A DNA stretch of 55,703 nt, from the IMG/VR virus record IMGVR_UViG_3300020156_000034, positions 1 through 55,703 of that record. One strand, 5' to 3'. The DNA comes from a virus (Duplodnaviria > Caudoviricetes). Made by a program: the position numbers and the translations under genes. Shown in pieces: positions 12,445-24,603 of the stretch (positions within the stretch are counted from its first letter, which is position 1; each line of letters starts with the position of its first letter). A model generated the notes under the pieces. It made no database searches and had not been told where the DNA came from. It saw nothing but the letters and a program-made list of their open reading frames with translations.

Positions 12445-13791
12445 ATGAAGAATCGCATGTCACTCGCCGGCACGCTGGTCCTGCTCATGTCAGGCCAGGC
12501 GTCCGCGCACATGCCGGGGTCGGACCTCTCGCAGTGGGACCCACTGTTCAAGGACGACTACGCCCCGGCCATCGTCAATCAGCTCGGTGACGAGAACGTC
12601 ATCCTGAAGTTCATGGAGTCCGAGACGCCGGACGACACCTGGCAGGGCCGCAAGAAGGTCATCCCGATCAAGATCGGCCGCAATTGGGCGACCGGCTCGA
12701 TCGGCGCCGGCGGCCGCCTGCCGCAGGCGGGTCGCTCGGCCTACGAGAACTTCGAAGTGCCAATGCGGGACACGTACACCCGCGTGGGCTTCGAACGCTG
12801 GGTCATCGAGCAGAGCCGCAACAAGAAGGGCTCCTGGCAGCAGGTGATCCCGGCCGAAATGGAAGCGGCCACCGAGGACCTCGCGTTCCAGCGCAACCGC
12901 GTGTGCTGGGGCTACGGTTCGGGCATCCTCGCCCTGGTCAACGGCGCGCAGAACGCCGACACCACGATCGAAGTGGACTCGCCCGGCAACGTGGCGGGCT
13001 CGGTCATGGGGAACCGCTACCTGTTCGGGGATGACACCTCGGGCATGTTCGTGGCCTTCCTCGACTCGAACAACGTGGTGCAGGGCACCGGGACGATCAC
13101 CGGCTACTCGGCCGCGGGCACGTCGATCACGGTCGACACCCCGATCACCTGCGACGACAACGCCAAGATCGTCATGGCGCAGAACGCGTCGCAGAACTCG
13201 TACAACAAGGAGCCGGAAGGCATCCTGGCGGGGATTGACGACGGCACCTACGTGGGCACGTACCACGGGCTATCGCGCACGCAGTACCCGATCCTGAAGT
13301 CGCACATCGTCACCGGCGTGGGGGCGCTGTCGCTCGACGCGATCCAGCAGCCGATCGACGCCGTGTCGATCCGCGTGGGCAAGACGATCGACTTCTTCGC
13401 CGCCGAGCACGCTGTGCGCCGCGCCTACCTCGCGCTGCTCGAGGCCGACCGCCGCTACACCGGCGCAAACCTCATGGCGCCGGACGGCGGCACGAAGGCC
13501 GCGAAGAAGCCCACCGGCAAGGCGATCACCTACGGCGACATCCCCATCGTCGTGGACCGCGACGCGCCCTACCGGATGCTCTTCGGCATCAACAAGGGCT
13601 CCTGGACCCGCTACGTCGAGAACGAGGGCCAGTGGGCCGACGACGACGGGCACGTCATGAAGTGGGTGTCCGAGTACGACCAGTGGACCGCCTTCTTCTA
13701 CATGCTGGACAACTTCCACTGCCAGCAGAGCAACCGCAACTTCCGCATGGAAGGCATCGACGTCACGCAGCTGCTCGCGCACTCCTTCTAA
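12445..13791 (+). CDS. Major capsid protein with signal-peptide-like leader
   Basis: Position after the scaffold; 448 aa; strongly biased codons; pattern LFKDDY..IVNQL...GRLPQAG; downstream hairpin. Confidence 0.85.
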   Translation: MKNRMSLAGTLVLLMSGQASAHMPGSDLSQWDPLFKDDYAPAIVNQLGDENVILKFMESETPDDTWQGRKKVIPIKIGRNWATGSIGAGGRLPQAGRSAYENFEVPMRDTYTRVGFERWVIEQSRNKKGSWQQVIPAEMEAATEDLAFQRNRVCWGYGSGILALVNGAQNADTTIEVDSPGNVAGSVMGNRYLFGDDTSGMFVAFLDSNNVVQGTGTITGYSAAGTSITVDTPITCDDNAKIVMAQNASQNSYNKEPEGILAGIDDGTYVGTYHGLSRTQYPILKSHIVTGVGALSLDAIQQPIDAVSIRVGKTIDFFAAEHAVRRAYLALLEADRRYTGANLMAPDGGTKAAKKPTGKAITYGDIPIVVDRDAPYRMLFGINKGSWTRYVENEGQWADDDGHVMKWVSEYDQWTAFFYMLDNFHCQQSNRNFRMEGIDVTQLLAHSF

Positions 13792-13813
13792 GGAGCGCCG
13801 GCGGCTGAAACAT

Positions 13814-13851
13814 CCCGCCGGAGGGTCACAGGATCCTCCGGCGGGCGCTTC
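13814..13851 (+). terminator. GC hairpin after the capsid gene (terminator or mRNA stabiliser)
   Basis: CCCGCCGGAGG/CCTCCGGCGGG perfect 11-bp stem; weak U tract. Confidence 0.6.
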
Positions 13852-13874
13852 ACTCATCAATACACAGAGGCTTT

Positions 13875-14498
13875 ATGAACTCGATCATTCCGGACGGCGC
13901 AGAGATCAAGGATCTGACGGCGGCGCAGAACAACCCGACGATGAAGATCCGGACGGATCAGCCCGTGGTCTGCATCAACCGCGGGCGCAAGCCACTGTCG
14001 GACGCGTTCGACGGGCGCCACATCACCATTCCGCCCGGGCACTTCCGCATGGAGTACGGCGCGGCGAAGCATTTCCAGATGCGCCTCATCGTCCCGGGCA
14101 CCCGCAATCTCGAGGTCGGCGGGTTCCAGAGCTGGATCGGGATTCTCGGCACCGAGGACGGCCGGATCAAGGTCGACAAGCCGGAGCTGTGCCGGCCGTT
14201 CACCGACGAAGAACTCCAGAAGTTCGGCGAGGCCGTCGAGGCGATCGACCGTTCGGCCATGAGCAACGCGGCCGATCGCGACGTCAAGCCGACGTCGGTG
14301 GCGCAGGTGCAGGCGCACACCTTCGGCCAGGGCGGCGGCCGGCCGCAGATCGACGCGTCGGCCCAGGCGACCCCGGGCGCGGCCGAAGCCGCGGACGACG
14401 TGTTCGCCCCCCCGGCCGAGAGCGCCACGCGCGAGGCCCAGGCGGAAGCCCAGGCTGAGGGCGCGGCGCCCGCAGCGACAGGACGGCGCCGCCGGTGA
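13875..14498 (+). CDS. Hypothetical head-module protein
   Basis: GAGG RBS; ORF follows the capsid gene. Confidence 0.75.
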   Translation: MNSIIPDGAEIKDLTAAQNNPTMKIRTDQPVVCINRGRKPLSDAFDGRHITIPPGHFRMEYGAAKHFQMRLIVPGTRNLEVGGFQSWIGILGTEDGRIKVDKPELCRPFTDEELQKFGEAVEAIDRSAMSNAADRDVKPTSVAQVQAHTFGQGGGRPQIDASAQATPGAAEAADDVFAPPAESATREAQAEAQAEGAAPAATGRRRR

Positions 14499-15025
14499 GC
14501 ACCCCGCACGTTCCGGTCCCCGTGCACTTGCGGCTTCCGCCGCAGTTCGAAGACGTGCAGGGCTATCTCCGCCTGATCGATCCGGAACTCCGGATTCGAC
14601 GTAGCGCGGAGAACGGCATGCTCTACGTCCTCGAGCGCCGGTGTCGGCGGTCGCCCGCGGTGAACACGGGGATGCGGGACCAGTCGGATATGCACATCCA
14701 GGCGCGGGACGGCTACATCCACGTCGCCACCACGCTCGAAATCTGGCTCACGAAGCCCTGGAACATCGTGCGCGCGCTCGTCGAGGAGGGCGCGGACCTG
14801 TGGGCCGAGGGTGGCGCGCAGAAGTACTGCACCGAGCAGGAATACGAAGAGAACTGGCAGAAGGAAACCCGGAAGCGCCGGCGCCTCGGGCTCTACCGAG
14901 ACATCGCGATCGACGGGATCCGCGCGCTGGACCGCATGAACATCGGCGGGGAGCGCACCAGATTTAACAATCCGGGAGTGCCCGGCAGGACACACGCGGA
15001 TTTTATCGGCGCCCCGGCGTCGTAA
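14495..15025 (+). CDS. Hypothetical head-module protein
   Basis: GTGA coupling. Confidence 0.7.
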   Translation: MSTPHVPVPVHLRLPPQFEDVQGYLRLIDPELRIRRSAENGMLYVLERRCRRSPAVNTGMRDQSDMHIQARDGYIHVATTLEIWLTKPWNIVRALVEEGADLWAEGGAQKYCTEQEYEENWQKETRKRRRLGLYRDIAIDGIRALDRMNIGGERTRFNNPGVPGRTHADFIGAPAS

Positions 15026-15416
15026 GAGCCCGATGAACAGACCAGCCGCGCTTCAGACGGGTGCGAATAGTGACTGGATTCAGTCCCTTTTCGTTCGCCC
15101 ACTCGTGCAGCGACCTGGTCGCACCCATAAACGTCAGGCGCGTCGTGAGCCTGGTGTTGTTCATCTGCTCGACGTGCCTGGCCCACCGGACGTTGCCCGG
15201 TTCGTAGTCGCGGTCATTGTCGATGCGTTCCAGTTCGTGCTCAGGCGTCGGACGAGGACCCACGTCAGCGATGAACACCTTGAATCGGCGCCAAGAAGGG
15301 TGAACCGAAATGCCGCGGCCCCCATAGCTGGCGTACGAGGTCGCGCGTGGGTTCGTGCATCGCTGAATCATCATCGCCCAGCAGTTGTACTCGGCCGGGC
15401 GTTGGCGGAACGGCAT
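15003..15416 (-). CDS. HNH-type homing endonuclease-like protein
   Basis: W..MIQRC.NP....Y..YGGRGISV...W..F..F..DVG.RP....LERIDND..YEPGNVRWA. Confidence 0.85.
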   Translation of the reverse strand: MPFRQRPAEYNCWAMMIQRCTNPRATSYASYGGRGISVHPSWRRFKVFIADVGPRPTPEHELERIDNDRDYEPGNVRWARHVEQMNNTRLTTRLTFMGATRSLHEWANEKGLNPVTIRTRLKRGWSVHRALTTPGRR

Positions 15417-15422
15417 AACCCG

Positions 15423-15451
15423 AGTGTATTCGGGATCTGTCGTCTTAACAA
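15423..15451 (-). promoter_or_regulatory. Sigma70-like promoter for a leaderless HNH mRNA
   Basis: Minus strand reads TTGTTA-17 nt-TACACT-6 nt-ATG. Confidence 0.5.
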
Positions 15452-15536
15452 CCCCGATCTGACGCTCACGACAGAAGGTCGTCAGGTCGGACAGGCCGCT
15501 CCGGCCTAACGGAGCAAGAAGGAAGGGGAGATCCCT

Positions 15537-15911
15537 ATGCGCTCAGACTCCAAGCGTGTGATTGGCAAAGCCGCCAGCTACACCATCAACCCGAACGGCG
15601 ACCGCGGCGGGTCGGTGTTCACGAACGACGGGGCCACCGGCGCCGTCGACTTCACCCTGCCGACGCCGAACGCGAACGCGCTCGGTCTCGAGTATCGAGC
15701 CGTCGGCGTCGCGGACTTCGCGGTTGGCTTCGTCGGCGCCACAGCCGGCGACATCGTCACAAAGAACGACGTCGCCGCGGATTCCGTCAAGGCGCAGACC
15801 GCCGGCGAGATCATCGGCGCCGAGCTGCTCGCCCGCTGCGTGAAGGTCAGCGGCGGCTACAAGTGGCAGGTCATCGGCGTCGCCGTCGGCCACACCTACA
15901 CCGTCGCGTAA
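15537..15911 (+). CDS. Putative capsid decoration/head-fibre protein (paralog A)
   Basis: FTNDGATGAVDFTLP...GVAVGHTYTVA; homologous to the next gene. Confidence 0.6.
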   Translation: MRSDSKRVIGKAASYTINPNGDRGGSVFTNDGATGAVDFTLPTPNANALGLEYRAVGVADFAVGFVGATAGDIVTKNDVAADSVKAQTAGEIIGAELLARCVKVSGGYKWQVIGVAVGHTYTVA

Positions 15912-15984
15912 TTCCGGGCCGGTGGCGCGTCCTCGGCTCCTCGTTCATCGCTTTGTTTCCGTGTTTCGTTGAAGGGAGATCCTT

Positions 15985-16551
15985 ATGAAGAAGAACCTGC
16001 TCTACGCCCTCATGGCGTCCGTCGTGGCGCTCCTCGTCCTGGCGATCGCGCCGCTGTTCGGCGCGCCGGCGCCCACGCTCGACACCTACGGGTCCCTGGG
16101 CGTCATCGGACTGGCCGGTACCACGTTCCTCCTGGCCGAGCCGACGGTGAAGAACCTGATCGCGCTCGGCTATCTCAGCGCCACCGGACAGCTGAACATG
16201 GTGCGGCGCGTGGTCGCGAAGACCGCCGACTATGCCGTGCTCGCCTCCGACGGGTCCGGCACCCTGTTCACCAACCGCGGCGCGGCCGGGACGGTGATCT
16301 TCACCCTGCCGGCGCCGGCGGCGGCGCTGGCAGGCTACGTGTTCCGGTTCAAGGCGCACGCCGACCAGACCATTACCGTCAAGACGGCGACCGCTGACAC
16401 CCTCGTGGTCCTGAACGACGCGGCGGCTGACTCGCTGTCGCTGTCGACGGCCGGCGAGAAGATCGGCGGCGAGATCGAGGCGTTCTGTGACGGCACGAGC
16501 TGGTTCGCCAGCGGCGTGGCGGTGGGGCACACCTACACGATCGCCACCTAG
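15985..16551 (+). CDS. Paralog B, with hydrophobic N-terminal extension
   Basis: FTNRGAAGTVIFTLP...GVAVGHTYTIA preceded by two hydrophobic segments. Confidence 0.6.
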   Translation: MKKNLLYALMASVVALLVLAIAPLFGAPAPTLDTYGSLGVIGLAGTTFLLAEPTVKNLIALGYLSATGQLNMVRRVVAKTADYAVLASDGSGTLFTNRGAAGTVIFTLPAPAAALAGYVFRFKAHADQTITVKTATADTLVVLNDAAADSLSLSTAGEKIGGEIEAFCDGTSWFASGVAVGHTYTIAT

Positions 16552-16560
16552 TTCTGAGGC

Positions 16561-16628
16561 GGGGCTGGGCGCGGGTTTCCTCCTTGGCGGTGGGTCCCCC
16601 CCTTCCGTCGGCCCGCGTGCCAGCCCCT
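16561..16628 (+). terminator. Long GC-rich stem-loop in intergenic DNA
   Basis: GGGGCTGG..GCGCGGG pairs with CCCGCGT..CCAGCCCC. Confidence 0.4.
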
Positions 16629-16664
16629 CTCAGGATGTGACGCAACTCTTCTCAGGAGATCGCC

Positions 16665-17168
16665 ATGCAGCTGTTTCTGAAGCGTCTCTCGCTCGCCGTG
16701 GCCGCCATCCTCCTCGCCGGCGTCATCGCGCCGAACGTGGAGCCGCCGGCCGAATTGCCCCTCATGCCGCACGAGATCCGCACCGACGGGTCCCTGCGCG
16801 AACAGTTCAACGCACCGAGCGAGCTGGATCGGTGGCTGCTGGCCAACGGGCTGCTGGAGCCCGTGACGCTCGAGGCGCAGGGCACGCGCGCGCCGGTGCG
16901 GCTCATCGCCCCGTATCGGGTCACCGTCGGGACGTCCGCCGAGCAGGTCACGGATTCCGGCAACGTCAACGGCGGCGTCGTCATCAAGGCTATTTGTCCA
17001 GGGCAGACCATCTATGTCGGCGTCTCGTCCTCGGTGACGACGTCCACCGGCTACCCGCTCTCGGATGGTGAAACCCTCACGTTGGAGGTTCGGAATGCGA
17101 ACGCCCTCTATGTCATTGCGTCGGCTGCTGCTCAGTCTGTCGCTGTGCTGCCTTTCTCTCGGTACTAG
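16665..17168 (+). CDS. Putative virion protein with signal peptide (beta-rich)
   Basis: AGGAG RBS; MQLFLKRLSLAVAAILLAG; C-terminal IYVG...TSTGYPLSDGETLTL beta domain. Confidence 0.7.
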   Translation: MQLFLKRLSLAVAAILLAGVIAPNVEPPAELPLMPHEIRTDGSLREQFNAPSELDRWLLANGLLEPVTLEAQGTRAPVRLIAPYRVTVGTSAEQVTDSGNVNGGVVIKAICPGQTIYVGVSSSVTTSTGYPLSDGETLTLEVRNANALYVIASAAAQSVAVLPFSRY

Positions 17169-18063
17169 CGTCGGTCCGGCGTTCGCGCAGCAGTCCGGTC
17201 CCGGCGTGCTGCCAGGCGGCAGCGGGGGGGGTAGTGGTGTCACCGTTCCTGGATCCGATACCCAGATCATCTTCAACGATGGCGGGTCGTTCGGTGCGGA
17301 CAGCGGGCTGACGTTCAACAAGGCGACGGACGCGCTCACGATTGGGGGCAACGTCACACTGCTGGGCGAAGCCGCCAACGTGCTGGCGCTGAGAAACGGC
17401 ACGAACGCGCAGCAGCTCTTTCTCTATAACAGCTACACCGATGCCAGCAACTACGAACGCTTCCAGATGGCATGGTCGGGCAACACGCTCTATCTCAACA
17501 CAGCCAAGGGGGGCACGGGCACGGCACGGGGACTCACTATTCGCACGGATGGTAGCGGTGACCTGTCGTTCGGCACCGCTGCAACGGATCGGTGGAAAGT
17601 CGGCGGAACGAATGGTCACTGGCTGGCAGGGGCAGATAACACCTACGACATCGGGGCAAGCGGGGCGACACGCCCACGAGCAGGCTACTTCGGCACCTCA
17701 GTGAATATCGGAGGCTTCGCGAGACTGACTTCCTCAAACATCGCCGTCCCTGCAATGCAGGTGAAGTCCCTCGACGGTTCTACGTGGACCCGTATTGAGG
17801 CACTAACCATTGGCGTGCAGGCTGCTGGCTACATTGATTGGGCGGGCCGCAGCTATATCACGTCCCCAGCCAACGCGCAGATTCAGTTCAACAACACAGC
17901 AGGCACATCGAGCTGCAAAGTCATCTGGGGCGATGGCACTCCTGAGTCTGCCGTCGTGGGCAACGTCTGTGACTTCTACCTCCGCACCGATGGTGGCGCA
18001 GGCAGCACGTTCTACGTGAAGGAATCGGGCGCAGCCACCAACACCGGCTGGGTCGCAAAATAA
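17110..18063 (+). CDS. Fibre-like virion protein with signal peptide
   Basis: GSDTQIIFNDGGSFGADSGLTF and GTPESAVVGNVCDFYLRTDGG..TFYVKESG...TGWVAK fibre motifs; leader ends in AFA-QQ. Confidence 0.7.
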   Translation: MSLRRLLLSLSLCCLSLGTSVGPAFAQQSGPGVLPGGSGGGSGVTVPGSDTQIIFNDGGSFGADSGLTFNKATDALTIGGNVTLLGEAANVLALRNGTNAQQLFLYNSYTDASNYERFQMAWSGNTLYLNTAKGGTGTARGLTIRTDGSGDLSFGTAATDRWKVGGTNGHWLAGADNTYDIGASGATRPRAGYFGTSVNIGGFARLTSSNIAVPAMQVKSLDGSTWTRIEALTIGVQAAGYIDWAGRSYITSPANAQIQFNNTAGTSSCKVIWGDGTPESAVVGNVCDFYLRTDGGAGSTFYVKESGAATNTGWVAK

Positions 18064-18080
18064 ACCAAGGGAGATCAATC

Positions 18081-18494
18081 ATGCGAAAGCTCGCTCTACT
18101 ACTGCTCATCGTGCTTGTTGCGGTTTCGCCCCTTCGCGGAGAGTCCCCGGAATCCACGACCCAGATGAAGCTGGCGGTGGAACCGACGTTCCTGGCGCGG
18201 CTGCAGTACGTCATGGTCCAGCAGGCCCGCACGGTCAAGGCTGAAGCCCTCGACACCGCCTGCCACGCTGAGCGCACGGCCTTCGCAGATCGCGTGATCG
18301 ACTTCCCACCCGAGATGGCGGCGAAGTCAGCGGTGATGCTGGTGGGCGGCGTCAATCTCATCGGGACCGTGACGGTAACTCCAGCTTCAGGGGACACACC
18401 CGAGAGCGTGACCACCTCCGTCACCGACGCGGCGCTCCTGTCGCAGGTCGCCACGTTCTGGAACGCCCTATCCAAATGCGACACCGGGAGTTGA
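18081..18494 (+). CDS. Hypothetical protein with signal peptide
   Basis: GGGAG RBS; MRKLALLLLIVLVAVSPLRG. Confidence 0.7.
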   Translation: MRKLALLLLIVLVAVSPLRGESPESTTQMKLAVEPTFLARLQYVMVQQARTVKAEALDTACHAERTAFADRVIDFPPEMAAKSAVMLVGGVNLIGTVTVTPASGDTPESVTTSVTDAALLSQVATFWNALSKCDTGS

Positions 18495-18498
18495 CATC

Positions 18499-18957
18499 AT
18501 GCTGACAGCGACATTGCTCGCGGCGCTCCTGGCCGGCCAGGCGCCGTCTTCCACGCCCATCGCTGACGCGATCCCGTCGATCGACGTCCGCACCATCGAG
18601 CGGCAGGACGCCGCGTCGCCTCGGCCTCCGCACCGGGATCACGGCTACGGCTTCAAGCTGCTGATGGTTGGGAACGTCGTGGTGATGGGAGCCGACATGG
18701 CCGGCACGATGACCTGTATCGCGGAGCGGACCTGCGTGGAGGTCAATCTGCTCCAGAAGCACCTTGTGGAGAACCGACCGATCCTGGCGGGCGCCGTCAA
18801 CGGGCTGCAGACTGCTGCCATCCTCCTGTGGATGGACCGGGTCAGCCAGAAGCGGCCGAAGCTCGCCAACGCGATCATGGCCTTCTGGTTGGTCACCCGC
18901 GGCTACGTGGCCTTCGTCAACAACAAGCGCGTGCTCGAGCAGGGGCGGGGGCGGTAG
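18499..18957 (+). CDS. Hypothetical membrane or exported protein
   Basis: Hydrophobic N-terminus and further hydrophobic segments. Confidence 0.65.
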   Translation: MLTATLLAALLAGQAPSSTPIADAIPSIDVRTIERQDAASPRPPHRDHGYGFKLLMVGNVVVMGADMAGTMTCIAERTCVEVNLLQKHLVENRPILAGAVNGLQTAAILLWMDRVSQKRPKLANAIMAFWLVTRGYVAFVNNKRVLEQGRGR

Positions 18958-19926
18958 ATGCACCAGACCCGTCGGGAGTTCCTCGACGACATCCTCGACT
19001 TCGTCGGTCACGCGAACGACCCGGGCGCGCGGAACACGATGGAGCGGATCCTGAACCGCGCCATCGAATCGATGTGGAACAAGCGGCCCTGGCCAGTGTT
19101 CCTGCATCCGACGGCGTACGAGTTCTCGACGCTGGCAAACACGCGCGCCTACGGCCTGCCGGTCTGGTTCGGACGCGTGAGCGGGATCGATGGCGCCATC
19201 CGCAACCTCACGACGGGGCAGCGACTCTACCCGTCCACCCGGGAGAAGCTCGAGGCGGAGGACCCCACGGTGGGGACTTCGAACGAGGCCGCGGGACCGC
19301 CGAGGGTCTACTACCTTGCAGGCGTGCAGCCCGTGCACACCCAGCCGGCGGCATCCGGCGATGCACTCGAGGTCCTCTCCGACAGCGCCGCGGACACCGC
19401 GGTCAGCGTCCTCATCGGCGGGATCAACGGGGATGGGCAGTGGACCAGCGTGCAGGTCACGCTCACCGGCACCGTCGCCGTCCCCGCCGGCACCTGGCGC
19501 GAGGTGTTCGAGTTCGCGAAGGCGTATCCGGACGGCACCACGCCAGCCACGGAGTTCACCAGCAGTGCCGGTAGCGTCACGCTGCGGAAGGTGACCGGCG
19601 CCACGGAGCTCCAGATGCTCCTGCCTCAGGAAAGCGCGCGCGAGGTCCGGGTGTTGAACCTGTACCCCAAGCCCGATCAGGCCTACGACATCGCCGTGCC
19701 GTTCCTTCGATCGCCGCGGAAGGCGTGGAAGGATGCCGACGTGCTGCCCTTCGGCTGGGGCCCGGCCCTGTTCGAAGAGTGCCAGATCGAGTGGCAGGTG
19801 CAGGCCGGCGACCTGTCGCGCCAGGCGGCCGCCCAGACGGCTCGGCCCGCGTTCATCGATCTGACCTGTAACGAGAACGCAGCGGCCGCGCAGATGAACC
19901 GCCGCCGGGAGCCCTTCCGGGGATGA
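18958..19926 (+). CDS. Head-tail adaptor (tail tubular protein A-like)
   Basis: ILNRAIESMW...WP...YGLP and LYPKPDQAY motifs; directly precedes the nozzle-like gene. Confidence 0.65.
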   Translation: MHQTRREFLDDILDFVGHANDPGARNTMERILNRAIESMWNKRPWPVFLHPTAYEFSTLANTRAYGLPVWFGRVSGIDGAIRNLTTGQRLYPSTREKLEAEDPTVGTSNEAAGPPRVYYLAGVQPVHTQPAASGDALEVLSDSAADTAVSVLIGGINGDGQWTSVQVTLTGTVAVPAGTWREVFEFAKAYPDGTTPATEFTSSAGSVTLRKVTGATELQMLLPQESAREVRVLNLYPKPDQAYDIAVPFLRSPRKAWKDADVLPFGWGPALFEECQIEWQVQAGDLSRQAAAQTARPAFIDLTCNENAAAAQMNRRREPFRG

Positions 19927-22034
19927 GCGAGACCCGCCCGTCGATCGTGCTCGACTGCGAGGACTTCTCCCCGGGATTCTTGGACACGCCCGAGCCAGAT
20001 ACCCTGCCGCGCGGCGCCACGCCGGACGCGAAGAACGCGTTCTTCTACCGGCTCGAGACGCAGGATCGGACCCGCGCCACGATGCGCCGGCGAAAAGGGT
20101 GCCGCCTGATCAACCCGACTGCGATCGCGTCAGGCGCGGCGATCGACGGCATCTGGCAGTTCGACCGCGAAGGGGCGGACTCCGAATTGGTCGTCATGTG
20201 CGACGGGGCGCTCTACGTGTGGGACGGCGTCGACGCGTTCACCGCGATCACGGACGGGGGCGGCTTCACCGCTGGGAATGACACGTATGCCATCCCATTC
20301 AAGAACAACCTGATCGTCTCGGACGGCACGGTCACGAAGCGGTACGACGGGACCGCCTGCTTCACGCTGGGTTTCGTCGCACCGACCGGGGCCCCGACGC
20401 TCACGGTCGGCAGCACCACGGGTGTCACCGGCACGTATGAAGGCTTCGCGGTCTGGGTCGAGGAGGACACCGGCCACGAGAGCAGCCCGAGCGCCATCAC
20501 GTCGGCCGTCGCGTTCACGGACGACAAGCGGGTCTGGGCGAAGCCTGCGGGATCCCCGCCGGCGAACGTCACACACTGGCGCGTCTACTGCCGTCGCACG
20601 GACACGAACGAAAACAACTTCTTCAAGACGGGCACCGATCAGGCAGTGGCCACCGCCAGCTACGAGGAGGCGACGTCTGACGCCGCGCGGCGCGACATCG
20701 GCCCACTGACGCAGTCGAACGACGTCCCGCCGGCCTTCGCCCTCACCGAGGAGTACAAGGGCTACCGCATCGGCGTGAAGGCGAACAGCTCAGACCTCTA
20801 TATCTCGAAGCAGTTCGACGCCGAGAGCCAGGCCCCACGGGACGTGTTCCCGGTCGGCGGCCGCGGCGAAGCGAAACCTGTGCGCAGCGTCCGCAAGTAC
20901 GGGGAGGACTGTTTCGTCCGGAAGCCGACGAAGACCTACCGCCTGGTCGGCGATCGCGTGCCGTTCGCCATCACGCCGGTGGACTCCAGCTACGGCTCGG
21001 TGAGCCAGGCCGCCGGCATCGAGATCGACGGGCTCTGGTACGACTGGGATGAACAGCGCGGGCCCTACGTATCCGATATGAACAGCCTGTGGTCGTCGCT
21101 GGCAGACGATCGCATCGCCGGGCTGGTGGGAACTGTCAATCGCGTGTATCTGAGCAAGATCCGCGTCGCGCACTACGTGTCGCTGAACATCGTGCAGTGG
21201 GCGATCCCTACGACCTCCAGCCGGAAGCGCACCATCATCGCCTACAACTACCGGCTCAAGCGGTGGCTTCCGCCGATCACCGGCATGGAGTACGCCTCCA
21301 TGTGCACGTTCACCACAAATGCCGGGGCCTCCGGCCTCTACTTCGGGGACGAGTGGGGTCGCGTCTACGAGATGTACAGCGGGGAGGTCGACGGCGTTCC
21401 CAGCGGCTCGACGTCGGTGGCGATCACCGTCGCGACATCGGGCTCCATCACTGCGGATGCCGCGTCCTTCTACACGACCGGTGACGGACTCGCGGGGATG
21501 CCGGCCGCCGTCCGGAGTCCGTCCGGCGCCTGGCAGTGGGTCCGCATCCAGTCCAACACTGCAACGGTCCTCACGCTCGACACGAGCAACGGTCCCGCCC
21601 TCGCGCCTGTCCCGGATGGGGATGGCGAATGGCTCGTGGTCGTCGGGGGCATCGAGTGGTATTGGGACACGCCGCGGCTGACCGGCGGCAATCGCATGAT
21701 CGAAAAGCGGCCGTACTCGCTGGCGATCGAGGGCGGAGCGACGTCCTCGTCGCATCAGCTCGAGGTCAAACTCCGCTACAACCGCGGGATCGGGTTCGAT
21801 ACGACCTACGCAATCACGTTTCCGTCGACGGGCATGGCCTGGGGCACCGGCACGTGGGGTACGGATGCGTGGGGCGCTGGCGGCACACGAGCCATGCGCA
21901 AACACCGGCTGAACCGCTCCTTCTTCGACGTGCAGATTCGGGTGCAGAACTTCTACCCCAATCAGCCGTTCGAAATCACGGCCTACGTGCTGACGGCTGA
22001 TTGGCAGACGAGACGACGGGTGGCATCCGTATGA
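19923..22034 (+). CDS. Tail nozzle/stabilisation protein (beta-propeller-like)
   Basis: 703 aa, beta-rich; ATPDAKN...MRRRKGC start; podovirus gene order. Confidence 0.65.
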   Translation: MSETRPSIVLDCEDFSPGFLDTPEPDTLPRGATPDAKNAFFYRLETQDRTRATMRRRKGCRLINPTAIASGAAIDGIWQFDREGADSELVVMCDGALYVWDGVDAFTAITDGGGFTAGNDTYAIPFKNNLIVSDGTVTKRYDGTACFTLGFVAPTGAPTLTVGSTTGVTGTYEGFAVWVEEDTGHESSPSAITSAVAFTDDKRVWAKPAGSPPANVTHWRVYCRRTDTNENNFFKTGTDQAVATASYEEATSDAARRDIGPLTQSNDVPPAFALTEEYKGYRIGVKANSSDLYISKQFDAESQAPRDVFPVGGRGEAKPVRSVRKYGEDCFVRKPTKTYRLVGDRVPFAITPVDSSYGSVSQAAGIEIDGLWYDWDEQRGPYVSDMNSLWSSLADDRIAGLVGTVNRVYLSKIRVAHYVSLNIVQWAIPTTSSRKRTIIAYNYRLKRWLPPITGMEYASMCTFTTNAGASGLYFGDEWGRVYEMYSGEVDGVPSGSTSVAITVATSGSITADAASFYTTGDGLAGMPAAVRSPSGAWQWVRIQSNTATVLTLDTSNGPALAPVPDGDGEWLVVVGGIEWYWDTPRLTGGNRMIEKRPYSLAIEGGATSSSHQLEVKLRYNRGIGFDTTYAITFPSTGMAWGTGTWGTDAWGAGGTRAMRKHRLNRSFFDVQIRVQNFYPNQPFEITAYVLTADWQTRRRVASV

Positions 22035-22342
22035 CGATCCGCGGCGTAGACCCAGCGACCGCCCTGGCGATCGACGCCCTCCGCGGCGAAACGCTCCCGT
22101 TCTGGGGCGCGTATGGCCCGGTCGTTGAGGTCACATTCCCCGTGGCATCCACCCGCCGCGACATCGCGCACGGTTTGTCACAGGTGCCAGACGGGTACTT
22201 CATCGTCTGGGCGGACGGCACGCTGTTCGCGGAGCCGGGTGTGCTCTGGACGAAGGACCTGGCCTACATGCGCAGCGGCGCCGACAACGTCCACGCGCGC
22301 ATCATCTTCTACACCGTTCGGGAGGCATACCGTGAAGCATAA
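22031..22342 (+). CDS. Hypothetical tail protein
   Basis: ATGA coupling; IAHGLSQVPDGY (H-G-L fibre/lectin-like motif). Confidence 0.6.
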   Translation: MTIRGVDPATALAIDALRGETLPFWGAYGPVVEVTFPVASTRRDIAHGLSQVPDGYFIVWADGTLFAEPGVLWTKDLAYMRSGADNVHARIIFYTVREAYREA

Positions 22343-23291
22343 ACTTCTGCTCCTTCTCGCCATGCTAGTTCTGCTGGCGACGCCCGCGCAGGCTCAGATC
22401 ACCATTACGTACACCTTCACAAACGGCACGTCGGCCGACGCCGATCAGGTGAACAGCAACTTCTCGACGTTGGCCACCAACGCCCTGAACCGCACCGGAG
22501 GTACCATCACCGGCAACATCGGAGTGAACGCCGGCGTCACCATCGATGGCGTCGACATCGGTGCGGCGCTGGGCGGTACCGGCACGCCGACCTTTGCGAG
22601 CGTCACGATCACTGGGACGGGCGCGAGCGCCCTTGACATCGGCGGGGGGCTGAACGCCGGCACCGGCGACGTCGCCATCATCGATGCGACCGGGAAGATT
22701 GCGGGCATCAGCGATGTCTACTTCGCATCGCTCGATGGCTCGAAGTTGACCGGTCTGAACGCCACAGAGCTGACGACCGGGACGCTGCCCAGCGGCCGCC
22801 TCTCCGGAACGTACAGCAGCGCGCTCACGCTCTCGAGCGCCTCCAATGTGCTGTATGGCAGCGGGGCCAATCTGACGGCGCTGAACGGCACGCAGATCAC
22901 ATCCGGCACAGTCGCGGACGCGCGCCTCTCGGCGAACGTCCCGCTGATCAATGCCACGACCAACACCTTCACTGGTGCGATGCGGTACGGCACGTCGCAG
23001 GTGCTGAGTTGGAACGCGAAGACCACGGACACCAACTATCAAGCCTCGAGTGACGGCTTCGTGGTGGTATTTGCCGACGCCATGAGCCCTGGCGGATTGG
23101 GGTTGCTGGAGGTGCTGTCGGACGCGGTCTCGACTCCCACGACCAGACGGGCGCTCGAGGTCGTCGCGAATGATGCGCGCAGCGTCATGGTGCCGATACG
23201 CAAGGGCGACTATTACAAAGTGGCCACCACGACGGACAGCGGAACCATTAGCTTCACGGCCTATTGGGTTCCCATGGGCACGGCAGGGTAA
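22332..23291 (+). CDS. Tail fibre-like protein with signal peptide
   Basis: GGAGG RBS; MKHKLLLLLAMLVLLATPAQA-Q; YTFTNGTSADADQVNSNF attachment motif; GSGANLTALN and SGTVADARLS repeats. Confidence 0.75.
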   Translation: MKHKLLLLLAMLVLLATPAQAQITITYTFTNGTSADADQVNSNFSTLATNALNRTGGTITGNIGVNAGVTIDGVDIGAALGGTGTPTFASVTITGTGASALDIGGGLNAGTGDVAIIDATGKIAGISDVYFASLDGSKLTGLNATELTTGTLPSGRLSGTYSSALTLSSASNVLYGSGANLTALNGTQITSGTVADARLSANVPLINATTNTFTGAMRYGTSQVLSWNAKTTDTNYQASSDGFVVVFADAMSPGGLGLLEVLSDAVSTPTTRRALEVVANDARSVMVPIRKGDYYKVATTTDSGTISFTAYWVPMGTAG

Positions 23292-23320
23292 TCAATCACA
23301 GTAGGGTGAGGAGGCGTCTT

Positions 23321-23710
23321 GTGAGAACACAGAGCATCGGGTGGATCGTCGTCGTGACGTGCGGGATCTTTGGAGCAGCCGTTTCTGCCCAGGAGAAGCC
23401 GATCGCGCCTCCAGCGGCCGTAGCGGAAGGCCCAGCGCCGCAGCTCACCGAGGTGGAGCGGCTGAAACTGGAGCTGCTGCAGGTGCGCACGTCCTATGCG
23501 CAGCTCCTGGCGAACTACGACGCGTGCAAGGCGGAAGTGGGGACCGCGTTCAATACGCTCGGACGGCTGCGTGCCGAGGCCGCCACCGCCGAACTGACGG
23601 CGGAGGAGGCGAAGCTGAAGGCGGCCATCGAGGCGGGGCACCCAGGATACCGCTGGGATCCGAAAACGGGGACCTTCACGAAGAAGCCGCCCGATCCGGA
23701 GAAGAAGTAA
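23321..23710 (+). CDS. Coiled-coil protein with signal peptide
   Basis: GAGGAGG RBS; leader ends in AAVSA-QE. Confidence 0.7.
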   Translation: MRTQSIGWIVVVTCGIFGAAVSAQEKPIAPPAAVAEGPAPQLTEVERLKLELLQVRTSYAQLLANYDACKAEVGTAFNTLGRLRAEAATAELTAEEAKLKAAIEAGHPGYRWDPKTGTFTKKPPDPEKK

Positions 23711-23955
23711 TGCCGCCGGCGGTGCAGTTCGAGGCCATCGGGCGCTCGGTGAGGCGGTCGGGGGACCAGTTCATTGTCCGCGTGGACTACATGCGGAAGA
23801 GCGATGGAAAGCTCGTCGGGCGGGTCGAACACAAGGTAAAATCCAAGTCTGCCATCAAAGCTGCGGTCGATGCGCAACTCACCTCGTTGAAGAACGCGCA
23901 GGACGAGGCGGACGCGAACTTCGACATCGTCGGCAAGGTGCTGGGGACGATCTAA
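23710..23955 (+). CDS. Hypothetical protein
   Basis: TAATG coupling. Confidence 0.65.
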   Translation: MPPAVQFEAIGRSVRRSGDQFIVRVDYMRKSDGKLVGRVEHKVKSKSAIKAAVDAQLTSLKNAQDEADANFDIVGKVLGTI

Positions 23956-23979: not shown

Positions 23980-24603
23980 ATGCCTATCCCACTCGCAGCT
24001 CTCGTCGCCCTTTCAGCCCTCGGTGCCGGGGCCGGTGCTATCTCGAGCAACATGTCGAATCGGCGCAACGCGGAGGCGCAGGAGCAGATGTCGCGCGAGC
24101 AGATCGAGGCCGAGGAGCGCCTGGCACGTCAGAAGCTCGCGGCCGACGAGTCGATGGCCGACCCCTTCCGCCAGCAGCTCAATCAGGCGAGCGCGATCAA
24201 GAAGCTGGATCAGCTCGAACGGGCCAGCTACATGCCCGTCGGCATGACGCCCGCCGGCCCGTACGCCGGGTCGGTACCGACAATGACCGGCGGCTACAGC
24301 TATGAGAAGAGCCCTGAACTGATCGGGTCCGCGGGTGCGATCAAGCGTAACGTCATGGCAGGCCACACGGCGCCGACAATGACGAACCCGGCGAACCACG
24401 GCCGCACGGCGGCGCTCGACCTACTCCGCATCCTGGCCGGTGATGTGGACGCGGCCGATCCCACCGCGTTCAAGTCTGGACCGCACGCCGGTGGCGTGAG
24501 TGGCACACGGGCCGTGCCGCGTGGCGCGCGGCGCGGTGCGGCGTCCGTGAACGTTGGTGGCGTACGGTCGATGGACTCTCGGCTCCAGCCCTCGTTCGCG
24601 TAA
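23980..24603 (+). CDS. Putative ejection (pilot) protein 1
   Basis: Ala/Gly hydrophobic N-terminus followed by a Q/E helix, the pattern of P22 gp7-like proteins. Confidence 0.6.
   Translation: MPIPLAALVALSALGAGAGAISSNMSNRRNAEAQEQMSREQIEAEERLARQKLAADESMADPFRQQLNQASAIKKLDQLERASYMPVGMTPAGPYAGSVPTMTGGYSYEKSPELIGSAGAIKRNVMAGHTAPTMTNPANHGRTAALDLLRILAGDVDAADPTAFKSGPHAGGVSGTRAVPRGARRGAASVNVGGVRSMDSRLQPSFA

What the first reader, a model, noticed from the sequence alone, without database searches (positions are those of the whole stretch)
12445..23710. Virion module in which the capsid, fibres and accessory proteins carry Sec-type signal peptides
Seen: eight structural-region genes start with a hydrophobic leader, most with a basic n-region and several with an AxA-type site. 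They are the capsid 12445 (MKNRMSLAGTLVLLMSGQASA-HM, with a GGAG RBS at this ATG), 15985 (MKKNLLYALMASVVALLVLAIA), 16665 (MQLFLKRLSLAVAAILLAG), fibre 17110 (MSLRRLLLSLSLCC...PAFA-QQ), 18081 (MRKLALLLLIVLVAVSPLRG), 18499, fibre 22332 (MKHKLLLLLAMLVLLATPAQA-QI) and 23321 (...GAAVSA-QE). Portal, adaptor and nozzle lack such leaders. Established: tailed phages assemble in the cytoplasm and their structural proteins normally have no export signals. Inference: this phage may fold or add fibres and decoration proteins in the periplasm, assemble heads on the membrane using signal peptidase for maturation, or display receptor-binding proteins in the envelope. Any of these would be an undescribed morphogenesis route.
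Basis: partly seen in the sequence, partly recalled or inferred. Interest (0 to 1): 0.85.

Follow-up and report, generated by a model that had tools for sequence, protein, structure and literature searches.

The report
Export signals on phage tail fibres
In this soil-bacterium phage the tail fibres and a few small neighbouring proteins, but not really the capsid, start with genuine-looking bacterial secretion signals, which suggests that the fibres are exported before they join the virus, a route not described for tailed phages and still unproven.

Summary
The window is a complete 55.7-kb temperate short-tailed phage. A close prophage sits in a Vicinamibacterales (Acidobacteriota) genome.

**Observation:** partly confirmed.
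- Leaders with a ribosome-binding site are real on 15985, 16665, 17095/17110, 18081, 18499, 22332 and 23321.
- Only 17095, 22332 and 23321 are textbook cleavable signals (AxA|Q).
- 15985 and 18499 look like membrane anchors.
- The capsid "leader" is a variable N-terminal extension. It is absent in the closest relatives and not signal-like in most others.

**Strongest result:** the post-nozzle fibre (22332) belongs to a family with 1269 cluster representatives.
- Of the best 150, 117 carry a hydrophobic leader, and 114 of those have Gln at +1.
- 21 start exactly at that point (MAISIPYTF) with no leader and no Gln.
- The host proxy also puts Gln at +1 (15 of 35 AxA sites) and encodes a glutaminyl cyclase.

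**Reading:**
- The signals are genuine Sec/signal peptidase I signals (about 0.8).
- The exported fibres are the virion's own and join the particle after export (about 0.4).
- Membrane assembly of heads is not supported.

This scan has flagged the same pattern before on other phage DNA. I found no description of it in print.

The parts
12445..13791 (+). Major capsid protein. Residues 1-22 (12445-12510) are a variable N-terminal extension that only resembles a signal peptide.
   Evidence: phrog_14242 major head protein, E 2.2e-46, match from residue 27. GGAG lies 7 nt before the ATG. Relatives L015 and L016 start at MPGSD, and others carry non-hydrophobic extensions.
15537..15911 (+). Small conserved protein with no leader. 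It is a paralogue of the C-terminal domain of 15985.
   Evidence: tblastn found it in all 13 related loci. It aligns with 15985 residues 71-188.
15985..16551 (+). Paralogue with two predicted N-terminal hydrophobic helices, then a beta domain that resembles tailspike and baseplate anchor domains.
   Evidence: AF2 mean pLDDT 80.5, helices 3-25 and 32-50. Foldseek hits: KP1 baseplate cup 9f4a_LS E 3.8e-4, Pa223 capsid spike 9ny6_C 2.1e-3, CBA120 TSP4 N-terminus 7rej_A 3.4e-3. The leader is absent in orthologues of L008, L009, L015 and L017.
16665..17168 (+). Leader-bearing small protein with a highly conserved C-terminal domain of about 95 aa. Its end overlaps the start of fibre 1.
   Evidence: phrog_30212, E 1.5e-9. 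54 homologues at 51-83% identity: most have a hydrophobic leader by eye, and 10 are 96-100 aa and start at the domain.
17095..18063 (+). Fibre-like protein 1. Predicted signal peptide 17095-17187, cleavage AFA|QQ.
   Evidence: GGAGG lies 6 nt before ATG 17095. Residues 50-163 match the annotated S-CBP4 tail fibre, and the C-terminal 50 aa match many annotated fibres and tailspikes. The same leader plus QQSGPGVLPGG occurs in L008.
18081..18494 (+). 137-aa protein with a strong hydrophobic leader. Not found in the related loci.
   Evidence: No Pfam or PHROG family.
18499..18957 (+). DUF5658-like membrane protein immediately upstream of the adaptor-like gene.
   Evidence: PF18902, E 9.6e-5, 23.5 bits against a cut-off of 25.2. 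A clear DUF5658 protein (E 4.6e-11) sits in the same position in L034.
18958..19926 (+). Adaptor-like protein with no leader.
   Evidence: Conserved at 40-62% identity in relatives. No PHROG or Pfam hit.
19923..22034 (+). Nozzle-like protein with no leader.
   Evidence: Weak sequence hit to the six-chain entry 8jov_A, 'Virion-associated phage protein', E 0.0026. Homologues lie directly upstream of the fibre in 14 of 15 loci. None of 11 homologues has a leader.
22031..22342 (+). Small conserved protein between nozzle and fibre, with no leader. Function unknown.
   Evidence: Atlas neighbours are viral hypothetical proteins only.
22332..23291 (+). Tail fibre 2. Signal peptide 22332-22394 (GTG start, cleavage AQA|QI), a conserved N-terminal domain of about 60 aa, a shaft, and a jelly-roll knob.
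   Evidence: family with conserved leader and A|Q. (synteny and leaderless orthologues). Knob residues 223-315 match XepA 6i56_D: Z 10.6, rmsd 2.0, 89 aligned. The start overlaps the stop of 22031-22342 by 11 nt.
23321..23710 (+). Small protein that looked helical and coiled-coil-like to my eye (not computed), with a predicted signal peptide (GTG start, cleavage VSA|QE).
   Evidence: GAGGAGG before the GTG. Orthologues in L003 and L017 have different leaders followed by Q.
23980..24603 (+). It is a candidate internal or ejection protein.
   Evidence: The role is inferred from position only.

Best explanation
**What the leaders are.**
- The leaders on the two fibre proteins (17095, 22332), on 23321, and probably on 16665 and 18081, are genuine Sec signal peptides cut by signal peptidase I.
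- They are written in the dialect of an acidobacterial host that places glutamine at the new N-terminus, which a glutaminyl cyclase can then cap.
- 15985 and 18499 are membrane-anchored proteins rather than cleaved ones.
- The capsid extension is not an export signal.

**How I think it works.**
- The head, portal, adaptor-like protein, nozzle-like protein and internal proteins are built in the cytoplasm as usual.
- The peripheral parts that are added last, the fibres and perhaps small accessory proteins, are exported to the periplasm and trimmed there.
- They dock onto the finished particle only when holin and endolysin lysis merges the compartments, or afterwards in the lysate.

**Shown here.**
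- The leaders are translated.
- They are conserved as leaders.
- The cleavage motif is coupled to Gln.
- The fibre is syntenic with the nozzle gene.
- Leaderless orthologues exist.

**Inferred.**
- Export and cleavage actually occur.
- The exported pool is the virion's own.
- When and where the fibres dock.

**My odds.**
- Signals functional: about 0.8.
- The whole chain, including post-export joining: about 0.4.
For: **Translation of the leaders.**
- Every leader start has a Shine-Dalgarno sequence.
- No alternative start lies between the leader and the conserved mature sequence.

**Fibre 22332: first homologue set.** 120 of 177 homologues were listed. 95 of those fit a strict pattern, and of those 95:
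- 93 have a leader of at least 15 aa with a hydrophobic core;
- 92 have a net positive n-region;
- -1 is Ala in 89;
- -3 is Ala or Val in 77.

**Fibre 22332: profile search.** A profile of the mature N-domain found 1269 cluster representatives. Of the best 150:
- 117 have a hydrophobic leader, with Gln at +1 in 114;
- 22 begin at the domain itself: 21 leaderless forms that open MA/MS/MP/VP and never have Gln there, plus one truncated leader form (SSTSAQ...);
- 3 more have short or less hydrophobic leaders, also ending in A|Q;
- 8 match only internally.

**Host grammar.** In 400 kb of the Vicinamibacterales genome that carries the closest prophage:
- 15 of 35 AxA/VxA signal-like starts have Gln at +1;
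- Gln makes up 3.4% of residues overall (binomial p 1.6e-13);
- that genome encodes a glutaminyl cyclase (PF05096, E 2.7e-92).

**Evidence that 22332 is the virion fibre.**
- It lies directly after a nozzle homologue in 14 of 15 viral loci spanning GC 50-67%.
- In 5 of those loci (4 distinct sequences) the orthologue has no leader and starts MAISIPYTF, exactly at the predicted cleavage point.
- Those leaderless forms match PHROG tail-fibre families (phrog_9017, E 3.1e-12) and annotated fibres of cultured phages.
- The N-domain is conserved while the C-terminal parts vary, including one with a Peptidase_S74 domain.
- The compact relative L017 has no other fibre candidate.

**Evidence against a host gene.** The domain was found in 1 of 301 sampled genomes of the phylum, and there only inside the prophage.

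**Operon structure.**
- The genes are tightly packed or overlapping.
- No promoter-like site was found, and only 4 weak terminator-like sites against 8.8 expected.

**Docking to the nozzle.** Complex prediction, nozzle plus three copies of fibre residues 22-115, gave weak support.
- Score 0.55, best of three controls 0.28.
- The mark was reached by 58 of 80 solved complexes and 2 of 110 mismatched pairs.
- At 0.60 or under it was reached by only 7 of those 80 solved complexes and by both mismatched pairs that passed.
- The runs agree in at least 79% of contacts, and the partner's pLDDT is at least 84.
- My own alignments were used, and copies rather than single chains, so the calibration holds only roughly.
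Against: - No experiment and no trained predictor: every signal call rests on my own heuristic and on sequence patterns.
- Nothing shows that the exported pool is the pool that ends up on virions.
- The nozzle, the proposed docking partner, has no leader, so the model needs a step that has not been described: assembly across compartments or after lysis.
- The complex score is in the band where passes are more often wrong than right, unless the guess was likely beforehand.
- The 22332 fibre has no cysteine in its mature part, so oxidative folding gives no reason for export.
- In the family of fibre 1, only about 10 of 120 listed homologues have a leader, by eye. The usual N-terminus (MAYKFNPFTGNLD...) is missing from the leader-bearing forms, so that fibre may not dock on a virion in the ordinary way.
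- 18081 and 18499 have no demonstrated link to the virion.
- The phage has an integrase, so products expressed from a prophage are conceivable.
- Leaderless fibres form essentially one group in a poorly resolved tree, so the natural experiment may amount to a single event.
Confidence: 0.4

Rival explanations
1. The leaders are real export signals, but the exported fibre-like proteins are not virion parts. They would sit in the periplasm or on the cell surface of the infected or lysogenic cell. There they could mask the receptor, which would give superinfection exclusion or protect progeny from sticking to debris. Alternatively they could act as adhesins, as the signal-bearing trimeric MAT fibres of Bdellovibrio do.
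For: - The architecture matches Bdellovibrio MAT fibres. In the passages I read, Caulton et al. [quoted passage not shown]
- The phage is temperate: it has an integrase at 44186-45313.
- Fibre 1 lacks the usual fibre N-terminus.
- 18499 is a membrane protein and 18081 is an orphan.
- Matrishin et al. 2023 (PMC10367356, passages read) interpret signal-bearing Q-rule genes of Porphyromonas phages as envelope modifiers.
Against: - The 22332 family always follows the nozzle gene, and its leaderless orthologues sit at the same place in sister phages.
- With this reading, the window and L017 would have no fibre at all.
- The genes are translationally coupled inside the late operon, with no promoter or convincing terminator of their own and no GC deviation.
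- The domain is essentially absent from host chromosomes: 1 of 301 genomes, and there only in a prophage.
- There is weak docking support to the nozzle.
Confidence: 0.3
2. The leaders are translated but do not drive export of the functional pool. They would act in the cytoplasm as a pro-peptide, a membrane tether, an assembly or chaperone handle, or a delay device. They would then be removed by another protease or kept.
For: - Tailed-phage assembly is cytoplasmic in every studied case (established knowledge).
- Matrishin et al. 2023 suggest that signal-like capsid N-termini are removed by prohead proteases.
- Three families here (fibre, 16665, 15985) tolerate loss of the leader.
Against: - The leaders have the full n/h/c layout of Sec signals.
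- -1 is Ala and -3 is Ala or Val, the signal peptidase I rule.
- +1 Gln is present in 114 of 117 leader-bearing forms and in none of 21 leaderless ones. This matches the host's own exported proteins and would have no reason in the cytoplasm.
- No protease gene was recognised in the module.
Confidence: 0.15
3. One reading: the capsid itself is a Sec substrate and heads mature at the membrane with signal peptidase.
For: - The window's capsid N-terminus reads MKNR, then a hydrophobic core, then ASA|H, with a good Shine-Dalgarno sequence.
- Its hydrophobicity (2.12) lies within the range of the host signals.
Against: - The closest relative (L015, 80% identity) and L016 start at MPGSD with their own Shine-Dalgarno sequence and no possible extension.
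- L007, L008, L009-11, L013, L017 and L036 have non-hydrophobic extensions.
- L002, L003 and L006 have hydrophobic extensions without an AxA site, ending instead in a conserved LDRxY motif.
- +1 is His, not Gln.
- DNA packaging by terminase needs cytoplasmic ATP (established knowledge).
Confidence: 0.03
4. Artefact: the leaders are gene-calling over-extensions in a GC-rich genome, and the true starts lie downstream.
For: High-GC genomes have long open frames. For 22332 and 23321, the longest ORFs listed do start further upstream.
Against: - Conserved mature sequence begins directly after the leader, with no start codon in between.
- A strong Shine-Dalgarno sequence precedes each leader start.
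- Independent homologues from hundreds of contigs show the same layout.
Confidence: 0.02

Closest known systems
Type I (Sec / signal peptidase I) signal peptides that obey the 'Q-rule' (Bochtler et al. 2018, PMC5837995; abstract and passages read)
   Same: - A positively charged n-region, a hydrophobic core, AxA at -3/-1 and Gln at +1.
- The host proxy shows the same bias and has a glutaminyl cyclase.
   Different: - The rule was described for Bacteroidetes. The paper's main text does not mention Acidobacteria.
- Here the substrates are phage fibre proteins.
- Cleavage and pyroglutamate formation were not measured.
Podovirus tail fibres (annotated fibres of Synechococcus phage S-CBP4, Prochlorococcus phage P-SSP7 gp17, Roseobacter phage CRP-4)
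   Same: - Shared fibre modules by sequence.
- The gene lies beside the nozzle gene.
- A conserved N-terminal part and swapped distal parts.
   Different: - The annotated S-CBP4 fibres begin without any leader.
- This family adds a cleavable signal in front of the N-terminal domain.
Bdellovibrio bacteriovorus MAT fibres (Caulton et al. 2024, PMC10769870; passages read)
   Same: - A signal peptide, then a conserved N-terminal domain, then a phage-fibre-like trimeric body with variable tips.
- Some end in an S74 chaperone-protease domain.
   Different: - MATs are multi-copy chromosomal genes of a predatory bacterium, displayed by the cell.
- This family sits in a phage late operon after the nozzle gene and was found in 1 of 301 host-phylum genomes, only in a prophage.
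- Sequence homology to the MAT N-domain was not tested.
Signal-bearing genes of Porphyromonas gingivalis phages (Matrishin et al. 2023, PMC10367356; passages read)
   Same: - Tailed phages whose genes carry signal peptides that obey the host's Q-rule.
- A signal-like capsid N-terminus is noted there too.
   Different: - In the passages I read, the genes named are capsid, spanins and unknowns, interpreted as envelope modifiers.
- Tail fibres are not mentioned in those passages.
Filamentous phage coat proteins (Ff pVIII and pIII); recalled, not from a call
   Same: Virion proteins made with cleavable Sec signals and assembled at the envelope.
   Different: A wholly different virus type with no head, terminase or portal. 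There every virion protein is a membrane protein before assembly.

Membership tests
Sec / signal peptidase I signal peptide | Positively charged n-region followed by an uncharged hydrophobic core of about 7-15 residues | tested here: met
   Met in the window for 15985, 16665, 17095, 18081, 22332 and 23321. In the fibre family, 93 of 95 have the core and 92 of 95 have a net positive n-region. 18499 has no positive n-region.
Sec / signal peptidase I signal peptide | Small neutral residues at -3 and -1 (AxA rule) | tested here: met
   Met for 17095 (AFA), 22332 (AQA) and 23321 (VSA). In the family, -1 is Ala in 102 and Gly in 13 of 117. Poor or absent for 15985, 18081 (LRG) and 18499.
Sec / signal peptidase I signal peptide | Score from a trained predictor (SignalP, DeepTMHMM) | not testable with these tools
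   No such tool was available. Only my own heuristic was used.
Sec / signal peptidase I signal peptide | Export and cleavage shown experimentally | not testable with these tools
   Needs reporter fusions or N-terminal proteomics.
Q-rule substrates (Gln at +1, pyroglutamate) | Gln directly after the cleavage site, in a host whose own exported proteins do the same and which has a glutaminyl cyclase | tested here: met
   +1 is Gln in 114 of 117 leader-bearing forms and in none of 21 leaderless forms. Host proxy: 15 of 35 AxA sites against a 3.4% background. PF05096 found in G001 at E 2.7e-92 and not found in G002. Pyroglutamate itself was not measured.
Phage tail fibre / receptor-binding protein | Sequence homology to annotated tail fibres | tested here: met
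   17095: S-CBP4 fibre, plus a C-terminal motif shared with many fibres and tailspikes. Leaderless orthologue of 22332: phrog_9017 E 3.1e-12, phrog_7760 E 9e-10, and the CRP-4 and P-SSP7 fibres. 22332 itself gave only one weak hit in the cultured-phage collection.
Phage tail fibre / receptor-binding protein | Conserved N-terminal attachment part with exchangeable distal parts, encoded in the tail module | tested here: met
   (N-terminal 60 aa conserved, the rest divergent). (directly after a nozzle homologue in 14 of 15 loci).
Phage tail fibre / receptor-binding protein | Physically present on the virion | not testable with these tools
   No cultured member exists. The only evidence is a weak in-silico docking result.
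Bdellovibrio MAT-type cell-surface fibres | Chromosomal, multi-copy genes of the cell itself | tested here: not met
   1 of 301 sampled genomes of the host phylum, a single copy inside the prophage.
Bdellovibrio MAT-type cell-surface fibres | Homology of the conserved post-signal N-domain | not tested
   No MAT sequence was fetched.
HK97-type major capsid protein (phrog_14242) | Profile match over the full length | tested here: met
   E 2.2e-46, residues 27-438 against profile positions 4-388 of 396. The 22-residue extension lies outside the profile.

The most novel reading that the evidence does not exclude
A large, mostly uncultured lineage of short-tailed phages builds its particle in two compartments.
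- DNA-filled heads with adaptor and nozzle form in the cytoplasm.
- The receptor-binding fibres are sent through Sec, cut by signal peptidase I, capped as pyroglutamate, and stored in the periplasm.
- The two halves meet only when lysis breaks the inner membrane.

The signal would then be a conserved, host-tuned part of virion morphogenesis. Related phages can drop it without changing the mature fibre.
Probability: 0.35. Interest if true: 0.85.

Novelty: new variant of a known kind. Interest (0 to 1): 0.65.

Why it matters
Tailed-phage assembly is taught as a purely cytoplasmic process. If the host-recognition fibres of a widespread phage lineage are exported first, several things follow.
- A step of morphogenesis happens across, or after loss of, the inner membrane.
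- Fibres could double as receptor blockers before release.
- Fibre N-termini would be chemically capped.
- Annotation pipelines that treat "signal peptide" as evidence against "virion protein" would mislabel receptor-binding proteins in soil and sediment viromes.

The leaderless sister clade gives a ready-made comparison for experiments. The Gln coupling gives a precise peptide to look for by mass spectrometry.

The side observation matters on its own: a Vicinamibacterales genome follows a Q-rule so far described for Bacteroidetes.

Tried and rejected
**Searches that returned little or nothing.**
- Pfam and PHROG scans of the leader-bearing proteins gave almost nothing.
- Sequence search of the PDB gave nothing for either fibre. 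For the nozzle-like protein it gave only E 0.0026 to 8jov_A.
- The nozzle-like protein had no match in the cultured-phage collection.
- The Atlas gave only viral hypothetical clusters for the 16665 domain and for 22031-22342. The H-lectin and PRD1 P5 rows score under 0.9 and are leads only.

**Structure and complex prediction.**
- The single-chain AF2 model of the 22332 fibre was poor (mean pLDDT 57.2). Only the knob could be used. The N-domain fold therefore stays untested.
- Complex prediction gave only weak support. It is cited with its controls in the evidence.

**Ideas I dropped.**
- Disulfide-driven export: mature 22332 has no cysteine, and the other counts are unremarkable.
- Tat export: RR occurs in some leaders (17095, L003, L007), but 22332 has KHK and the leaders are short and very hydrophobic. 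This was judged by eye only.
- Lipoprotein signals: no lipobox before the Cys residues of the 17095 leader, by eye.
- 16665 being the orthologue of the 126-aa gene upstream of the adaptor gene in the leaderless clade: BLASTP E 0.14, not supported.
- 23321 being a spanin: the lysis genes lie elsewhere (GH19 at 41299). Not pursued.

**Host assignment.**
- The window's integrase and endolysin have their best G001 matches on other contigs.
- The giant protein's C-terminal third matches G001:C1 at 31.5-34.8 kb, collinear with the window.
- Host assignment rests on that prophage and on the record titles. The third genome hit is a 31.9-kb contig binned as Myxococcales.

**Literature.**
- Six searches found no paper that describes Sec signals on fibres of tailed phages.
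- For PMC3556154 and PMC5723332 I read passages only. Neither bears on the question.
- Subscription journals are not in the library, and paper supplements were closed. The supplementary gene tables of Matrishin et al. 2023 could list tail genes that I could not see.

**Tree.** The careful tree search did not finish. Only the quick tree on 62 columns is reported.

Full report
**What the window is.** The window is a whole IMG/VR virus record of 55,703 bases, rated 100% complete, with about 66% GC.
- It has a large terminase, portal and HK97-type capsid protein.
- It has a 4287-aa polyvalent protein (LPD38, 2H phosphoesterase, zeta-like, methylase and SNF2 domains), a GH19 endolysin and an integrase-sized gene on the minus strand.
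- Capsid relatives at 71-80% identity occur on 13 viral contigs and in three genome records.
- Two of those three records are Vicinamibacterales (Acidobacteriota) metagenome-assembled genomes.
- One carries the phage at the start of a 655-kb contig, collinear at least to the giant protein.
- I therefore take a Vicinamibacterales-like diderm as the host. This rests on binned metagenomic assemblies.

**Checking the observation.**
- All eight named genes exist.
- Each leader start has a GGAG-type ribosome-binding site 5-8 nt upstream.
- Fibre 1 more likely starts at ATG 17095. Genes 22332 and 23321 start with GTG.
- My crude heuristic finds N-terminal hydrophobic leaders almost only between 12.4 and 24.6 kb. 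By my count that is 9 of 17 genes there against 2 of about 37 elsewhere (p 1.8e-4).
- Portal, adaptor-like and nozzle-like proteins have none, and neither do 11 nozzle homologues.
- The genes are packed or overlapping. No promoter-like site was found, and fewer terminator-like sites than in shuffles. GC does not deviate. They therefore read as part of one late operon rather than as inserted cassettes.

**The capsid.**
- The 22-residue extension is probably translated here, because the ribosome-binding site precedes it and none precedes M23.
- The closest relative (L015, 80% identity) and L016 have no in-frame start within 45 codons upstream of MPGSD. They carry a ribosome-binding site right before it.
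- L007, L008, L009-11, L013, L017 and L036 have extensions of similar length that are not hydrophobic.
- L002, L003 and L006 have hydrophobic extensions that end in a conserved LDRxY instead of an AxA site.
- The PHROG capsid profile begins at residue 27.
- The window's version is thus the only one that imitates a signal peptide, and it has His, not Gln, at +1.
- I read it as a variable N-terminal arm, not an export signal. Its hydrophobicity alone (2.12) does not exclude recognition, since 15 host signals range from 1.04 to 3.47.

**The post-nozzle fibre (22332).** This is the core of the finding.

*First homologue set.* 177 proteins were found and 120 were listed. Nearly all start with a leader followed by AxA|Q[IV][TS] and a conserved mature N-terminus. 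By a strict pattern, 95 of the 120 qualify. Several of the other 25 fit by eye. Of the 95:
- 93 have a leader of at least 15 aa with a hydrophobic core;
- 92 have a net positive n-region;
- -1 is Ala in 89;
- -3 is Ala or Val in 77.

*Profile search.* A profile of the first 60 mature residues, run against 1.84 billion cluster representatives, found 1269 proteins at E up to 0.001. Of the 150 listed:
- 117 have a hydrophobic leader of at least 14 aa, and 114 of them have Gln at +1;
- 3 have short or weaker leaders, also ending in A|Q;
- 22 begin at the domain;
- 8 match only internally.

Of the 22 that begin at the domain, 21 read M-A/S/P-I-S/T-I-P..., and none has Gln there. One is a truncated leader form. 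So Gln appears only where a leader precedes it.

*Tree.* In a quick, poorly resolved tree (62 columns, careful search unfinished), 20 of the 21 leaderless forms fall in one group together with one leader-bearing form. At least 3 changes of state are needed, and 0 of 500 label shuffles were as low. The root is unknown.

**Is it the virion's fibre?**
- In 15 viral loci that carry the N-domain (L023-L037, GC 50-67%), tblastn found a nozzle homologue directly upstream in 14. L023 has a 729-aa gene in that place by ORF listing.
- In L025, L026, L031, L033 and L035 the orthologue starts MAISIPYTF or MAILIPYTF, exactly where cleavage is predicted in the others.
- L023 carries the leader although its capsid is 64-67% identical to those of that group.
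- The leaderless forms match PHROG tail-fibre families and annotated fibres of cultured phages.
- The N-terminal 60 residues are conserved while the rest varies. One member ends in a Peptidase_S74 domain.
- The knob of 22332 is a jelly roll. The best match is XepA 6i56_D with Z 10.6, rmsd 2.0 and 89 aligned, followed by many C1q/TNF-like and phage tip domains at Z 7-8, which is near background.
- The compact relative L017 has no other fibre candidate.
- The domain was found in 1 of 301 sampled genomes of the host phylum, and only inside the prophage.

*Complex prediction.* Nozzle plus three copies of fibre residues 22-115 gave weak support.
- Score 0.55 against 0.28 for the best of three controls.
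- The mark was reached by 58 of 80 solved complexes and 2 of 110 mismatched pairs.
- At 0.60 or under it was reached by only 7 of those 80 solved complexes and by both mismatched pairs that passed.
- Runs agree in at least 79% of contacts, and the partner's pLDDT is at least 84.
- The calibration is only rough for this kind of job.

**Host grammar.**
- In 400 kb of the prophage-bearing genome, away from the prophage, I found 353 candidate genes.
- 76 have signal-like starts, and 35 of those have an AxA or VxA site. 15 of the 35 have Gln at +1.
- Gln is 3.4% of residues overall (p 1.6e-13).
- That genome encodes a glutaminyl cyclase (PF05096, E 2.7e-92). The second Vicinamibacterales genome gave no match.
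- This is the Q-rule described for Bacteroidetes (Bochtler et al. 2018; abstract and passages read). That paper's text does not mention Acidobacteria.
- The three canonical leaders in the window (AFA|QQ, AQA|QI, VSA|QE) follow it. So do the leaders in the relatives: VHA|QV, ASA|QT, VDA|QI, AYA|QS, AFA|QE, VAA|QT, LAA|QQ and AAA|QI.

**The other leader-bearing genes.**

*Fibre 1 (17095).*
- It shares a widespread fibre module (GSDTQ.QFNDGG...) and a common C-terminal fibre motif with annotated fibres.
- Of 120 listed homologues (250 found), only about 10 have a leader, by eye. Most begin MAYKFNPFTGNLD..., which the window's protein lacks.
- A signal has therefore replaced the usual N-terminus in this lineage. 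That makes a virion role less certain for this fibre.

*16665.*
- It has a C-terminal domain of about 95 aa that is 51-83% identical across 54 homologues.
- Most have a hydrophobic leader, by eye, and often an A|Q just before the domain.
- 10 are 96-100 aa and start at the domain.

*15985.*
- It is a paralogue of 15537. Its beta domain resembles anchor domains of tailspikes and baseplate or capsid spikes (Foldseek E 3.8e-4 to 1e-2).
- It is preceded by two predicted helices.
- Orthologues in L008, L009, L015 and L017 lack the leader.

*18499.* It is DUF5658-like. A clear DUF5658 protein sits at the same place in L034.

*18081.* It was not found in the related loci.

*23321.* It has a leader and a body that looked helical to my eye. 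Orthologues in L003 and L017 have different leaders followed by Q.

**Interpretation.**
- Three families (fibre, 16665, 15985) exist with and without a leader in related phages, and the mature part starts at the same point in both forms.
- Core particle proteins never have a leader here.
- That fits parts that are added last and can bind a finished particle wherever they meet it.
- I therefore favour export of the fibres and some accessory proteins, with docking when canonical holin and endolysin lysis merges the compartments or in the lysate.
- That purified fibres or tailspikes can bind fibreless particles in vitro is established knowledge for T4 and P22, recalled rather than taken from a call.
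- Why export happens is open. The pyroglutamate cap may stabilise the protein, as reported for Bacteroidetes (PMC10653852, abstract seen in the listing). Early receptor masking is another possibility.

My odds:
- signals functional, about 0.8;
- exported fibres are the virion's own and join after export, about 0.4 overall;
- exported but not virion parts, about 0.3;
- not exported, about 0.15.

**Comparison with what is known.**
- I found no paper describing Sec signals on fibres of tailed phages. Six searches were run, and their limits are given under Tried and rejected.
- Nearest in print are Matrishin et al. 2023, on signal-bearing Q-rule genes in Porphyromonas phages (capsid, spanins and unknown genes), and Caulton et al. 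2024, on Bdellovibrio MAT fibres.
- This scan has noted signal peptides on tail fibres and nozzles of other uncultured phages several times. Later checks priced the bold reading at 6-30%.
- What this window adds:
  - leaderless orthologues at the same locus;
  - the coupling of leader and Gln;
  - the host's own Q-rule with a cyclase;
  - a nozzle without a leader;
  - the failure of the capsid claim.

**Limits.**
- No trained signal predictor and no experiment.
- Host assignment comes from metagenome bins.
- Some counts were made by eye, and are marked where so.
- The contig look-up tool and paper supplements were closed.

Noticed in passing
L055-L074 (G001 contig C1, 100-500 kb) and L075: The Vicinamibacterales genome that carries the related prophage seems to follow a 'Q-rule'. 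15 of 35 AxA/VxA signal-like starts have Gln at +1, against 3.4% Gln overall. It also encodes a glutaminyl cyclase (PF05096, E 2.7e-92). The rule is described in print for Bacteroidetes, and the 2018 paper's text does not mention Acidobacteria.
   Followed up: partly
window 15003-15416 (- strand): A 137-aa gene on the opposite strand interrupts the late operon between 14495-15025 and 15537. To my eye its sequence looks like a homing-endonuclease or DNA-binding protein. No family search was run on it.
   Followed up: no
window 18499-18957; L034 1106-1390: A DUF5658-type small membrane protein lies immediately upstream of the adaptor-like gene in the window (E 9.6e-5, below the cut-off) and in a distant relative (E 4.6e-11). 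Its role is unknown. It could be tied to handling of the exported proteins.
   Followed up: partly
window 12445-12510 and capsid starts of L002-L017, L036: The capsid has a variable N-terminal extension of 17-24 residues in most relatives, often ending in a conserved LDRxY/W just before MPGSD. The extension is absent in L015 and L016. Its function is unknown.
   Followed up: partly
window 15537-15911 and 15985-16551: Two paralogous small proteins share a beta domain that resembles tailspike and baseplate anchor domains (CBA120 TSP4 N-terminus, KP1 baseplate cup, Pa223 capsid spike). Orthologues in L008 and L017 are extended to 398 and 298 aa.
   Followed up: partly
window 16665-17168: The C-terminal domain of about 95 aa (…APYRVTVG…AVLPFSRY) is one of the most conserved proteins of the module, at 51-83% identity over 54 homologues. 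It has no known family beyond phrog_30212 (unknown function).
   Followed up: partly
window 27402-40265: A 4287-aa polyvalent protein with LPD38, 2H phosphoesterase/Acb1-like, zeta-like, Eco57I-type methylase and SNF2 helicase matches.
   Followed up: no
window 23707-23955: A small open frame of about 82 aa with no leader fills the gap between 23321-23710 and 23980. By eye it resembles the 88-aa gene at L017 13757-14023.
   Followed up: no
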